Sequence record: AJ318417.1
Length of the DNA stretch: 920 bases
Source: a phage
Strand: one strand, 5' to 3'
Shown here: piece after piece, positions 1-920 of the stretch
Layout: the number at the start of each line of letters is the position of its first letter
Numbering within the stretch: the first letter of the stretch is position 1
Made by a program: the position numbers and the translations under genes
Notes under the pieces: generated by a model
Told to the model about the DNA's origin: nothing
Seen by the model: only the letters and a program-made list of their open reading frames with translations
Databases searched by the model: none

Positions 1-20
1 TAAGCAGAAAGCATAAGTTG

Positions 21-50
21 AGGACTCCTTCGGGAGTCCTTTTTTATTTT
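21..50 (+). terminator. Rho-independent terminator: 8-bp GC-rich stem with UUCG tetraloop followed by a T-run
   Basis: Seen in sequence: aggactcc (21..28) pairs perfectly with ggagtcct (33..40) around the loop ttcg (29..32), followed directly by tttttatttt (41..50). Stop triplets (taa) at 1..3 and 14..16 suggest an upstream + strand gene ends just before it, but that reading frame is not visible in the window. The minus-strand side has no T-run, so it appears unidirectional. Confidence 0.8.
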
Positions 51-69
51 CCAAAGATTGCATAAAGTT

Positions 70-99
70 GTTTACAGTATGGTTCCTTTGTGATAGTAT
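70..99 (+). promoter_or_regulatory. Putative sigma70 / T4-early-type promoter (P1) driving the 127..459 ORF
   Basis: Seen in sequence: -35-like gtttac/tttaca at 70..76, a 17-nt spacer, and a -10-like tagtat at 94..99 preceded by TG at 91..92 (extended -10-like). An A/T-rich tract lies upstream (41..69). The GTTTAC -35 form is the one described for T4 early promoters. The predicted start site near 106..108 is inferred, not demonstrated. Confidence 0.55.
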
Positions 100-113
100 T
101 ATCTTACACAAAC

Positions 114-120
114 AAAGGAG
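114..120 (+). promoter_or_regulatory. Shine-Dalgarno sequence (aaaggag) for the 127..459 ORF
   Basis: Seen in sequence: aaaggag lies 6 nt upstream of ATG at 127; the spacer aataaa is A-rich. Confidence 0.75.
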
Positions 121-126
121 AATAAA

Positions 127-459
127 ATGAAAACGATTAATCTGAACGCTGCAGTTAAAACTAAATGCTTCAATGGTAAATATGATGAAACTATGTGGTT
201 CTTAATGGCAGTTGAAGGTGATATTATTGAAGTAGAAACAACAGAAGGTATGGGAACAGATTTCACCTTTACAATTCAGGTTCATAATTTCTTTACTGGT
301 TGGATTTATGAATTGAATACAGTAATCGTTGGAAAAATTGAACAAAATGAATTAGGTGAATGGTATTATGTTACAGCTCGCCAACGTGCCGAACGCTTAA
401 TTGAGAAGATGAAAAAAGTCGGTAAACTTGACATGCAACACTGGAAAGTAGTAAAATAA
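127..459 (+). CDS. Hypothetical small phage protein, 110 aa; function unknown
   Basis: ORF from the six-frame track with ATG start, strong GGAG RBS at the correct spacing, its own upstream promoter and a TAA stop at 457..459. I verified the translation by hand against the track. The N-terminal ~80 residues are rich in aromatic and beta-branched residues, and the C-terminal ~30 residues are basic (RQRAERLIEKMKKVGK...). No family was recognised. Confidence 0.85.
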   Translation: MKTINLNAAVKTKCFNGKYDETMWFLMAVEGDIIEVETTEGMGTDFTFTIQVHNFFTGWIYELNTVIVGKIEQNELGEWYYVTARQRAERLIEKMKKVGKLDMQHWKVVK

Positions 460-461
460 TT

Positions 462-490
462 GTTTACTTTGGTACAGGATATGATATTAT
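462..490 (+). promoter_or_regulatory. Putative sigma70 / T4-early-type promoter (P2) driving the 528..893 ORF
   Basis: Seen in sequence: gtttac at 462..467 (context tgtttacttt matches the T4 early -35 motif), a 17-nt spacer (468..484), and tattat at 485..490 as the -10. It begins 2 nt after the stop codon of the upstream ORF. The start site is inferred to lie near 497..499. Confidence 0.55.
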
Positions 491-501
491 ATACCTGTAC
501 C
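471..501. repeat. Perfect 8-bp inverted repeat (ggtacagg / cctgtacc) enclosing a 15-nt AT-only loop that contains the P2 -10 element
   Basis: Seen in sequence: ggtacagg at 471..478 is the exact reverse complement of cctgtacc at 494..501; the loop at 479..493 is atatgatattatata. No T-run follows (gcaattaaacatc), so it is not a canonical intrinsic terminator. Possible roles are an RNA hairpin in read-through transcripts from P1 or a DNA-level operator for a dimeric protein. Confidence 0.6.
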
Positions 502-515
502 GCAATTAAACATCT

Positions 516-520
516 CGGAG
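516..520 (+). promoter_or_regulatory. Shine-Dalgarno sequence (cggag) for the 528..893 ORF
   Basis: Seen in sequence: ggag at 517..520 lies 7 nt upstream of ATG at 528. The context ggagaataaaaatg is nearly identical to the first ORF's initiation region ggagaataaaatg (117..129). Confidence 0.75.
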
Positions 521-527
521 AATAAAA

Positions 528-893
528 ATGAACTACATCAACTTTGAACGTAAATATGTTTCTAATGGTATTGCAGGTTCTATTGATACTATCTGCCTTT
601 GGAAACATCAAAATGGATCAGTATGCGAAATTGAACAGTATATGACTCCTAACTATGTTTATATGCGATTTGAAAATGGCATCACGGTTTCAATCACAAT
701 GGAAGGTTCCAACTTTAAAATCGCTCTGGATGATGATTTTCGTCAACGCGATTTAGGGACTCATCCTTGCTGGAATGGTGCTAATCGCAAGCTTTTGGTT
801 AAAACTTGGATTCGTCATATTCTGAGTAACAGAGCTAAACCTGAGCATCTTGAAGCAATCTTTGATGTAGTTCTTAACGAATTTGATATTTAA
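528..893 (+). CDS. Hypothetical small phage protein, 121 aa; function unknown
   Basis: ORF from the six-frame track with ATG start, GGAG RBS, its own upstream promoter and a TAA stop at 891..893, followed by a GC-rich hairpin. It contains Cys23, His27, Cys33, His79 and Cys81 (including a GTHPCWNG stretch). No family was recognised. Confidence 0.85.
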   Translation: MNYINFERKYVSNGIAGSIDTICLWKHQNGSVCEIEQYMTPNYVYMRFENGITVSITMEGSNFKIALDDDFRQRDLGTHPCWNGANRKLLVKTWIRHILSNRAKPEHLEAIFDVVLNEFDI

Positions 894-901
894 AATAAAT
901 G

Positions 902-920
902 AGGGGCTTTGGCCCCTATT
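902..920 (+). terminator. Probable transcription terminator hairpin after the second ORF, truncated by the window edge
   Basis: Seen in sequence: aggggc (902..907) pairs with gcccct (912..917) around the loop tttg (908..911); the window ends after att, so the + strand T-run cannot be confirmed. On the minus strand the stem would be followed by catttatttta, so it could be bidirectional or serve a convergent downstream gene. Confidence 0.5.

What the first reader, a model, noticed from the sequence alone, without database searches (positions are those of the whole stretch)
471..501. Perfect 8-bp inverted repeat straddling the -10 element of the second promoter
ggtacagg (471..478) and cctgtacc (494..501) form a perfect palindrome pair with a 15-nt AT-only spacer that contains the predicted -10 (tattat, 485..490). 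As DNA this is the geometry of a dimeric repressor operator overlapping a promoter. As RNA in read-through transcripts from P1 it would form a stable hairpin just after ORF1's stop codon, acting as a 3' stabiliser, processing site or weak terminator without a U-tract. A transcript started at P2 near 498 would lack the 5' arm, so the two mRNAs would differ structurally.
Basis: seen in the sequence. Interest (0 to 1): 0.5.

Follow-up and report, generated by a model that had tools for sequence, protein, structure and literature searches.

The report
Stem-loop built into T4 early promoter
The inverted repeat is real and conserved, but it is not a repressor site: it is an RNA hairpin laid over the early promoter of phage T4 gene 30.7, an arrangement shared by about 40% of T4 early promoters and already described in T4-type phages.

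Summary
The window is a T4-like (Tequatrovirus) segment carrying genes 30.8 and 30.7. Its 30.8-30.7 spacer is identical to T4.

The 8-bp repeat is exactly where stated. The spacer is not AT-only, because it has G483. A bare 8-bp repeat is not significant by chance. The full hairpin at 461-512 is: -20.1 kcal/mol, z = -6.1.

Both arms are invariant in four genera, while the flanks diverge. In more distant genera the same promoter sits in hairpins with different arms, which differ by compensatory changes and G-U pairs. The motif occurs once per genome.

In T4, 13 of 31 canonical early promoters carry such a hairpin, against 0.2% of shuffles. Each has different arms. They hold 38 G-U pairs and no A-C mismatches on the sense strand. 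Selection therefore acts on sense RNA structure, not on a DNA operator.

This matches the "promoter-early stem-loop" (PeSL) cassettes of T4-type phages. The hairpin forms only in read-through transcripts. It lies between the 30.8 stop codon and a perfect RegB cleavage site, has no U-tract and leaves the 30.7 ribosome site free.

Its most likely role, which is inferred, is a 3'-boundary or protective hairpin for 30.8 mRNA, perhaps also an attenuator.

The parts
127..459 (+). Gene 30.8 (110 aa, Pfam PF06019 Phage_30_8, function unknown). This is the upstream cistron, and the hairpin follows its stop codon (457-459).
   Evidence: ORF list. Pfam hit at 2.4e-59. T4 annotation and 98% identity to T4.
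462..490 (+). Early promoter of gene 30.7 (P2). It has the T4-type -35 GTTTAC (462-467; TTTACT 463-468 in sigma-70 register), the extended -10 TG (482-483) and the -10 TATTAT (485-490). The predicted start is near 497-499.
   Evidence: Promoter scan: TTTACT-16-TATTAT with TG. It has the same GTTTAC/TGn/TAnnnT pattern as 31 T4 early-promoter sites. It is conserved upstream of 30.7 in all genera examined. Promoter activity was not tested here.
461..512 (+). Full stem-loop that covers the promoter. It is the RNA structure of read-through transcripts.
   Evidence: RNA fold -20.1 kcal/mol, z = -6.1. The same fold appears in longer read-through contexts.
471..478 (+). 5' arm GGTACAGG (core helix), lying in the promoter spacer.
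   Evidence: It is 8/8 identical in six phages of four genera. It shows compensatory changes in the Marfavirus and Winklervirus phages.
479..493 (+). Spacer or loop region holding TGn and the -10. Positions 479-483 pair weakly with 488-492, and the apical loop is 484-487.
   Evidence: It is variable between genera apart from TG and the -10.
494..501 (+). 3' arm CCTGTACC (core helix). It covers the discriminator and the predicted transcription start of P2.
   Evidence: The natural variant C495T (locus L024) keeps the pair as G-U.
517..527 (+). GGAGAATAAAA, the Shine-Dalgarno sequence of 30.7. It is an exact match to the 11-nt RegB/S1 cleavage consensus and lies 5 nt after the base of the hairpin.
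   Evidence: Sequence. Consensus GGAGAAUAAAA from PMC1702504. A RegB site in the SD of the T4 30.7 transcript is reported in PMC9409239. It is predicted to be largely unpaired in read-through RNA.
528..893 (+). Gene 30.7 (121 aa, Pfam PF06919, function unknown), the downstream cistron served by P2.

Best explanation
The inverted repeat is the core of a sense-strand RNA stem-loop laid over the early promoter of gene 30.7. It is a 'promoter-early stem-loop' (PeSL-type) cassette packed into a compact 68-nt intergenic gap.

As DNA, the stretch is an ordinary strong T4 early promoter (GTTTAC, TGn, TATTAT). As RNA, the hairpin exists only in transcripts that read through from the 30.8 promoter or from further upstream. 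Transcripts started at P2 begin inside the 3' arm and lack it.

The hairpin starts 2 nt after the 30.8 stop codon and ends 5 nt before a perfect, single-stranded RegB/S1 site (GG^AGAAUAAAA), which is also the 30.7 ribosome-binding site.

Most likely mechanism (inferred): RegB cuts the read-through RNA at the 30.7 SD, and the hairpin then becomes the 3'-terminal structure of the 30.8 message and blocks 3' exonucleases. It may also pause or partly attenuate read-through into the downstream promoter.

Shown: the structure, its conservation, selection at the RNA level, and that it belongs to a class. Inferred: the stabiliser or attenuator role.
For: - Fold: -20.1 kcal/mol, z = -6.1.
- Arms are 16/16 invariant in four genera, against 64-79% identity in the adjacent 30.8 coding sequence.
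- In the in-register alignment of the Tequatro/Dhaka/Mosig/Gapriver, Marfa and Winkler promoters, 92.7% of cells pair and 4 of 11 pairs change on both sides. G-C becomes G-U in 4 sequences. The covariation score is 0.331, against 0.185 for shuffles (0 of 500 reach it) and at most 0.147 for slid controls.
- Other genera have different hairpins around the same -10. CTCCGTTGTAT/ATACAACGGAG versus CTCCGAGGTTT/AAACCTCGGAG shows 3 double changes.
- Class-level evidence in T4: 13 of 31 canonical early promoters fold at or below -15 kcal/mol, against 0.19% of core-preserving shuffles and 1.3% of random windows.
- The sense fold is more stable than the antisense fold in 17 of 19 cases (p = 2e-4). There are 38 G-U pairs and 0 A-C mismatches on the sense strand.
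- Hairpin-bearing promoters sit a median of 3 nt after the upstream stop codon. Hairpin-less promoters sit in longer gaps that have upstream T-runs.
- The RegB site matches the published 11-nt consensus, and the 30.7 transcript is a reported RegB substrate. After RegB cuts, upstream fragments are attacked by 3' exonucleases (PMC3014915).
- The PeSL architecture, with stem-loops between -35 and -10 or overlapping the -10, is described in PMC2839356.
Against: - No transcript-end, half-life or termination data were available for this site, so the function is inferred from position only.
- The covariation rests on few independent lineages, about 3 in register. Within the T4-like group the arms never vary, so constraint on sequence cannot be separated from constraint on structure there.
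- Part of the G-U excess could reflect promoter-imposed G/T-rich 5' arms.
- In the one PeSL stem-loop that was tested, the authors found terminator-like activity rather than a stabiliser role.
- About half of the T4 promoter hairpins include the downstream SD, and this one does not, so the class may not have a single function.
Confidence: 0.6

Rival explanations
1. It is a transcription terminator or attenuator. The hairpin stops or reduces read-through from the 30.8 promoter into gene 30.7, which is the role proposed for PeSL stem-loops.
For: The authors of the PeSL paper report that one PeSL stem-loop lowered lacZ expression as much as rrnB T1. The hairpin is stable and lies right after a stop codon. 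Hairpin-less T4 early promoters more often have a separate upstream T-run terminator, 11/16 against 5/15.
Against: There is no U-tract after the stem in any lineage. The sequence is GCAATTAAACATC here and is A-rich elsewhere. The consensus terminator scan does not call it, although it does call the real terminator at 20-41. The association with upstream T-runs is not statistically firm.
Confidence: 0.17
2. It works at the DNA level. The palindrome acts as a cruciform or as a patch of homology, either serving recombination and module shuffling (PeSL mini-circle model) or modulating the promoter through supercoiling.
For: The DNA fold has z = -5.6. Gene content changes exactly at these promoters. 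T2 lacks 30.8 plus P2, and its 30.7 is joined to the P1 region at the GGAGAATAAAA repeat. KP179 and L048 carry a chimeric promoter that has lost the 5' arm. The PeSL paper documents recombination between such cassettes.
Against: There is strong strand asymmetry, 38 G-U against 0 A-C, and the sense fold is more stable than the antisense fold in 17/19 cases. A cruciform or duplex role would not produce this. The observed junctions lie in the SD repeat or the spacer, not in the stem. Recombination needs only homology, which does not explain compensatory changes.
Confidence: 0.1
3. It is an operator for a dimeric DNA-binding repressor that overlaps the -10.
For: It is a perfect 8-bp palindrome bracketing the -10. 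The arms are invariant in four genera. The mechanism that shuts off T4 early promoters is still unknown.
Against: The motif occurs once in T4 and once per T4-type genome in IMG/VR, and all other hits are in unrelated contexts. Orthologous promoters keep the pairing and not the sequence, with G-U pairs breaking the palindrome. Other T4 early promoters have hairpins with unrelated arms. The half-site centres are 23 bp apart, so they are not on one face of the helix. Neither neighbouring protein matches a DNA-binding family.
Confidence: 0.04
4. It is a translational switch of the T4 gene e/soc/49 type. The hairpin would mask the ribosome-binding site of 30.7 in read-through RNA, so that only P2 transcripts are translated.
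For: About half of the T4 promoter hairpins, and the Karam/Gelderland versions of this very site, include the SD in the 3' arm. The neighbouring P1 repeat does this for 30.8.
Against: Tested here and not met. The SD at 517-520 lies outside the stem. Its predicted unpaired probability is 0.35-0.66 in read-through RNA, which is no lower than the 0.21-0.27 in P2 transcripts.
Confidence: 0.04
5. It is a chance palindrome in an AT-rich spacer with no function.
For: A bare 8-bp inverted repeat is expected 0.79 times per window.
Against: The extended fold has z = -6.1. The arms are 16/16 conserved against diverged flanks. There is covariation and genome-wide enrichment.
Confidence: 0.02

Closest known systems
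PeSL (promoter-early stem-loop) regulatory cassettes of T4-type phages RB49 and phi1 (Arbiol et al. 2010, PMC2839356)
   Same: [quoted passage not shown] Both flank small genes of unknown function in a variable region, occur many times per genome, and show gene gain and loss with junctions at the cassettes.
   Different: The stem here is GGTACAGG/CCTGTACC rather than the frequent GGGG...CCCC. It is in T4 and Tequatrovirus rather than Krischvirus. Neither terminator activity nor mini-circle formation was shown for this copy. The evidence here favours an RNA-level role, and adds the adjacent RegB site, which the PeSL paper does not discuss.
T4 hairpins with an internal promoter that mask the ribosome-binding site in long transcripts (genes e, soc, 49, I-TevI). 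This comparison is from my own knowledge of the T4 literature.
   Same: In both, the promoter lies inside a hairpin. Distal transcripts contain the hairpin, and proximal transcripts start within it and lack the 5' arm.
   Different: In those cases the 3' arm holds the SD/AUG and the internal promoter is a late one. Here the SD is outside the stem and the promoter is early. The neighbouring repeat 84-91/112-119 at the 30.8 promoter does fit that model.
Intercistronic 3'-protective stem-loops of polycistronic bacterial mRNAs, such as REP-type stabilisers. This is general knowledge.
   Same: Both are a stable hairpin without a U-tract at the 3' side of a cistron, next to an endonuclease cleavage site, and would block 3' exonucleases.
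   Different: This one is overlaid on a promoter. The endonuclease would be the phage enzyme RegB. Stabilisation has not been shown.
The regulatory region upstream of T4 DNA ligase gene 30 (Truncaite et al. 2006, Virology 344:378). The title and the RegB site in 30.7 were confirmed through citing papers. The paper itself is not held.
   Same: It covers the same locus. From memory, its abstract lists a rho-independent terminator, early promoter(s), 'the sequence for stem-loop structure' and RegB sites as conserved in 16 T4-type phages. That matches the features seen in this window.
   Different: I could not read it, so I cannot say whether the stem-loop it names is this one or what role it assigns.

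Membership tests
PeSL (promoter-early stem-loop) cassette | A sigma-70-type early promoter with -35, -10 and AT-rich upstream sequence, located in an intergenic gap. | tested here: met
   GTTTAC/TTTACT-16-TG-TATTAT was found by the scan. The pattern is shared with 31 T4 early-promoter sites. In vivo activity was not tested here.
PeSL (promoter-early stem-loop) cassette | A stable stem-loop within the cassette, typically between -35 and -10 or overlapping the -10. | tested here: met
   The hairpin at 461-512 encloses the -10 and folds at -20.1 kcal/mol with z = -6.1. The definition is in PMC2839356.
PeSL (promoter-early stem-loop) cassette | [quoted passage not shown] | tested here: met
   The stop codon is at 457-459, the SD at 517-520 and the ATG at 528. 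gp30.8 and gp30.7 match only families of unknown function. 30.8 is absent in T2 and KP179.
PeSL (promoter-early stem-loop) cassette | The motif is repeated many times in the genome. | tested here: met
   13 to 19 of 31 canonical T4 early promoters carry an embedded hairpin.
PeSL (promoter-early stem-loop) cassette | The stem-loop acts as a terminator or attenuator. | not testable with these tools
   There is no U-tract and no transcript-end data.
PeSL (promoter-early stem-loop) cassette | The cassettes mediate insertion or deletion of the flanked genes by recombination. | tested here: inconclusive
   In T2, 30.7 is joined to the P1 region at the GGAGAATAAAA repeat. KP179 and L048 carry a chimeric promoter. 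These patterns are consistent with the feature, but they are comparative only.
Intrinsic (rho-independent) terminator | A G+C-rich stem followed directly by a U-tract. | tested here: not met
   The stem is followed by GCAATTAAACATC. The scan does not call it, although it calls the terminator at 20-41.
Repressor operator | The same palindrome recurs at other regulated promoters, or a cognate binding protein exists. | tested here: not met
   The motif is unique in T4 and occurs once per T4-type genome in IMG/VR. The protein side is not testable here.
Repressor operator | The half-site sequence, rather than base pairing, is conserved among orthologous sites. | tested here: not met
   Distant genera show compensatory double changes and G-U pairs. 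The arms are invariant only within the closer genera.
RBS-masking hairpin with an internal promoter (T4 e/soc/49 type) | The 3' arm sequesters the SD or start codon of the downstream gene in distal transcripts. | tested here: not met
   The SD unpaired probability is 0.35-0.66 in read-through RNA. The feature is met by the neighbouring P1 repeat, where the SD is 0.0 unpaired in read-through RNA against 0.7-0.9 in P1 transcripts.

The most novel reading that the evidence does not exclude
The hairpins built into about 40% of T4 early promoters might be the missing cis-element for the still unexplained abrupt shut-off of early promoters a few minutes after infection. This could work through a structure-specific factor or a supercoiling-dependent transition at the promoter DNA, or through the read-through RNA acting on the downstream promoter. 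A milder version is that they form a genome-wide RNA insulation system that, together with RegB sites, cuts early polycistronic RNA into units that are stabilised or silenced individually.
Probability: 0.07. Interest if true: 0.7.

Novelty: already known. Interest (0 to 1): 0.22.

Why it matters
The finding itself is an instance of a documented architecture in the best-studied phage, so it changes little. Its value is as a correction: a palindrome across a -10 looks like an operator, but here the evidence points to RNA structure.

The side result may be useful for annotating and engineering T4-like phages. Four in ten T4 early promoters carry such a hairpin. The hairpins show a clear sense-strand (G-U) signature and favour very short intergenic gaps. 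A consequence for phage engineering is that editing an early promoter can also change the 3' structure of the upstream message and, where the SD is in the stem, the accessibility of the RegB site and SD of the downstream gene.

Tried and rejected
- Operator regulon. I searched all of T4 and IMG/VR for GGTACAGG-N15-CCTGTACC. There is one copy per T4-type genome, and the other hits are in unrelated contexts.
- Canonical terminator. There is no U-tract, and the scan does not call it.
- SD masking by this hairpin. Rejected by partition-function folds.
- Known RNA family. Rfam gives only sub-threshold chance hits: mir-126 at 22.8 bits against a gathering score of 47.2, and Phe_leader.
- The 21-codon ORF at 460-525. 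It has a TTG start and no SD, and its frame relative to the arms differs in Bp7. It is annotated as a CDS only in HX01. I judged it spurious.
- DNA-binding function for gp30.8 or gp30.7. Only the Pfam/PHROG families PF06019 and PF06919 match, both of unknown function.
- Literature. Miller et al. 2003 (PMC150520), Piesiniene 2004 (PMC524301) and Truncaite 2006 are not held. No T4 Term-seq or genome-wide start-site paper was found.
- Link between embedded hairpins and the lack of an upstream terminator. The trend is 5/15 against 11/16 T-runs, and the Spearman correlation with gap length has p = 0.10. This is suggestive, not significant.

Full report
**Identity of the window.** The 920 bases are 98% identical to phage T4 (NC_000866, minus strand, about 129.46-130.38 kb) and to hundreds of Tequatrovirus genomes. 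The window holds the end of the 30.9-30.8 gap, gene 30.8 (127-459), a 68-nt gap (460-527), gene 30.7 (528-893) and the start of the next gap. The 30.8-30.7 gap is identical to T4 base for base. Both proteins belong to families of unknown function, PF06019 and PF06919.

**Check of the observation.** The arms ggtacagg (471-478) and cctgtacc (494-501) are perfect complements 15 nt apart, and TATTAT (485-490) lies between them. The spacer is not AT-only. G483, with T482, forms a TGn extended -10. With GTTTAC at 462-467 this gives the typical T4 early-promoter pattern.

A bare 8-bp inverted repeat with a 3-30 nt loop is expected 0.79 times per shuffled window, and 45% of shuffles have one. The repeat alone therefore proves nothing. 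It is, however, the core of a longer hairpin at 461-512. That hairpin folds at -20.1 kcal/mol as RNA with z = -6.1, and none of 200 shuffles fold as well. As DNA it folds at -10.7 kcal/mol with z = -5.6.

**Conservation.** I examined six phages of four genera: Tequatrovirus, Dhakavirus, Mosigvirus and Gaprivervirus. Both arms are 8/8 identical in all six. By contrast, the 30.8 coding sequence is 64-79% identical, the loop 73-100%, the 15 nt after the hairpin 53-87% and the 30.7 coding sequence 86-97%. In the non-T4 genera the helix is longer, TTGGTACAGGT/ACCTGTACCAA.

**Structure or sequence?** I followed gp30.7 orthologues of 45-56% amino-acid identity into other genera. The promoter before the gene is again wrapped in a hairpin whose loop holds the -10, but the arms differ.
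- Marfavirus: TTGGTGTAGGAGTA/TACTCTTACACCAA.
- Winklervirus: GGTGAGGGTCT/AGACTCTCACC.
- Kanagawavirus: GCTGATTGAGTGT/ACACTCAATCAGC.
- Karamvirus and Gelderlandvirus: CTCCGTTGTAT/ATACAACGGAG. This version has a 30-nt loop, and the SD lies in the 3' arm.
- One relative (L052): CTCCGAGGTTT/AAACCTCGGAG, which differs from the previous version by three double compensatory changes.
- Jiaodavirus shows both a restructured hairpin (L047) and a chimeric promoter without one (KP179, L048).

The Marfa and Winkler versions are in register with T4. On that alignment 92.7% of cells pair and 4 of 11 pairs change on both sides. One pair becomes G-U in four sequences, including the natural T4-like variant C495T. 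The covariation score is 0.331, against 0.185 for shuffles (0 of 500 reach it) and at most 0.147 for slid controls. The number of independent lineages is small, so this evidence is moderate and not decisive on its own.

**The operator test.** The motif GGTACAGG-N15-CCTGTACC occurs once in the 168.9-kb T4 genome. In IMG/VR it appears in 30 stretches. Thirteen are T4-type, all of them at this same site and once per genome. The rest are unrelated contexts, several of which look like coding sequence. There is no set of shared operators.

**A class, not a one-off.** I assembled T4 and found 31 canonical early promoters on the early strand, defined as GTTTAC, TGn and a -10. Thirteen of them fold at or below -15 kcal/mol in the 48 nt after the -35. 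That compares with 0.19% of shuffles that keep the TGn/-10 core, and 1.3% of random T4 windows. Each hairpin has its own arm sequence, with the -10 in or near the loop.

The sense-strand RNA fold is more stable than the antisense fold in 17 of 19 cases, -16.8 against -11.6 kcal/mol on average (p = 2e-4). The stems contain 38 G-U pairs and no A-C mismatches. Folded as antisense they show 10 G-U pairs and 9 A-C mismatches. The 30.7 orthologue set gives 19 G-U pairs and 0 A-C mismatches. A duplex operator or a cruciform would not produce this strand bias, whereas selection on the sense transcript would.

[quoted passage not shown] Hairpin-less promoters lie in longer gaps, which more often have an upstream T-run. 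This last point is a trend only.

**What the hairpin could do here.**
- It begins 2 nt after the 30.8 stop codon.
- It has no U-tract and is not called as a terminator, unlike the canonical terminator at 20-41.
- It does not mask the 30.7 SD. The unpaired probability is 0.35-0.66 in read-through RNA and 0.21-0.27 in P2-initiated RNA.
- Five nucleotides after its base lies GGAGAATAAAA (517-527). This is identical to the 11-nt sequence reported as required for efficient RegB/S1 cleavage, and that site must be single-stranded (PMC1702504).
- The T4 30.7 early transcript is cited as a known RegB substrate cut in its SD (PMC9409239).
- After RegB cuts, upstream fragments are attacked by 3' exonucleases (PMC3014915).

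The simplest reading is that the hairpin becomes the protected 3' end of the 30.8 message once RegB has cut. It may also pause or attenuate read-through. This step is inference from position, because no transcript-end data were available.

**Comparison with what is known.** The architecture matches the PeSL cassettes described for the T4-type phages RB49 and phi1. Those are strong early promoters with a stem-loop, most often between -35 and -10 or overlapping the -10. They lie between small genes of unknown function in variable regions. They have been proposed to act as terminators or attenuators and as recombination sites (PMC2839356).

Most of the testable PeSL features are met here; terminator activity could not be tested, and the evidence for recombination at the cassette is only comparative. 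Signs of shuffling at the cassette are also seen. T2 has no 30.8 and no P2, and its 30.7 is joined to the P1 region within the GGAGAATAAAA repeat. KP179 carries a chimeric promoter.

The locus itself was studied experimentally by Truncaite et al. 2006. Its title and the RegB site were confirmed through citing papers. From memory, its abstract names a conserved stem-loop sequence, but I could not read the paper.

**Verdict.** The operator interpretation is not supported. The RNA-hairpin interpretation is supported, and the element is a known kind in a well-studied locus. Interest is therefore low. The genome-wide numbers for T4 and the strand-bias argument are a modest addition.

Noticed in passing
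window 84-91 and 112-119: A second perfect 8-bp inverted repeat (TCCTTTGT N20 ACAAAGGA) brackets the -10 (TAGTAT, 94-99) of the 30.8 promoter. Its 3' arm contains the SD and RegB site of 30.8. The SD is predicted to be fully paired in read-through RNA (unpaired probability 0.0) and open (0.7-0.9) in transcripts started at that promoter. This is the classic T4 masked-RBS arrangement.
   Followed up: partly
window 117-127 and 517-527: The 11-nt direct repeat GGAGAATAAAA is an exact match to the published RegB/S1 cleavage consensus GGAGAAUAAAA (PMC1702504). Both genes therefore carry an optimal RegB site as their ribosome-binding site.
   Followed up: yes
L011 (phage T2) 301-411, compared with window 14-127 and 517-530: T2 lacks gene 30.8 and the hairpin promoter. 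Its 30.7 follows the terminator plus P1 region directly, and the junction falls inside the GGAGAATAAAA repeat. This fits deletion or insertion of a [30.8 + promoter] cassette by recombination between the repeats.
   Followed up: partly
L021 (Klebsiella phage KP179) and L048, 401-503; L047: The promoter before 30.7 looks chimeric. It has a P1-like terminator T-run and -35 region, joined to the P2-like -10 and 3' arm AGACCTGTACC, and the hairpin is lost. The related contig L047 has a new 5' arm that pairs with the retained 3' arm plus downstream CCC, at -28 kcal/mol. This suggests that the hairpins turn over.
   Followed up: partly
T4 genome (L012-L015), 31 early promoters: 13 of 31 canonical T4 early promoters have a hairpin of -15 kcal/mol or stronger enclosing the -10. 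Examples are at T4 65799, 57990, 20612, 62797, 8218 and 136336. About half of them include the downstream SD. The stems hold 38 G-U pairs and 0 A-C mismatches on the sense strand.
   Followed up: yes
window 20-50: A canonical rho-independent terminator, GAGGACTCC-TTCG-GGAGTCCTT followed by a T-run, with a UUCG tetraloop. It holds a GGAG inside the stem, the kind of structured GGAG reported as RegB-resistant.
   Followed up: partly
window 902-917: A GGGGC-TTTG-GCCCC hairpin lies right after 30.7. In T4 the loop is TTCA and the stem is unchanged. The scan calls it terminator-like on the minus strand only. The GGGC/GCCC motif recalls the PeSL stems and the T4 deletion end-points mentioned in PMC2839356. 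The window ends before its 3' flank.
   Followed up: no
window 428-457: The best sigma-70 consensus match in the window (TTGACA-18-TAAAAT, 11 of 12) lies inside the 3' end of 30.8. A transcript from it would start near 464 and carry the hairpin at its 5' end. The hexamers are kept in T4 but not in Dhaka or Mosig phages, so the match is probably chance.
   Followed up: partly
window 460-525; L009 389-454: A 21-codon TTG-started ORF covers the intergenic hairpin. It is annotated as a CDS in phage HX01 (D299_gp262). It has no SD and its frame is not conserved, so it is likely an annotation artefact.
   Followed up: partly
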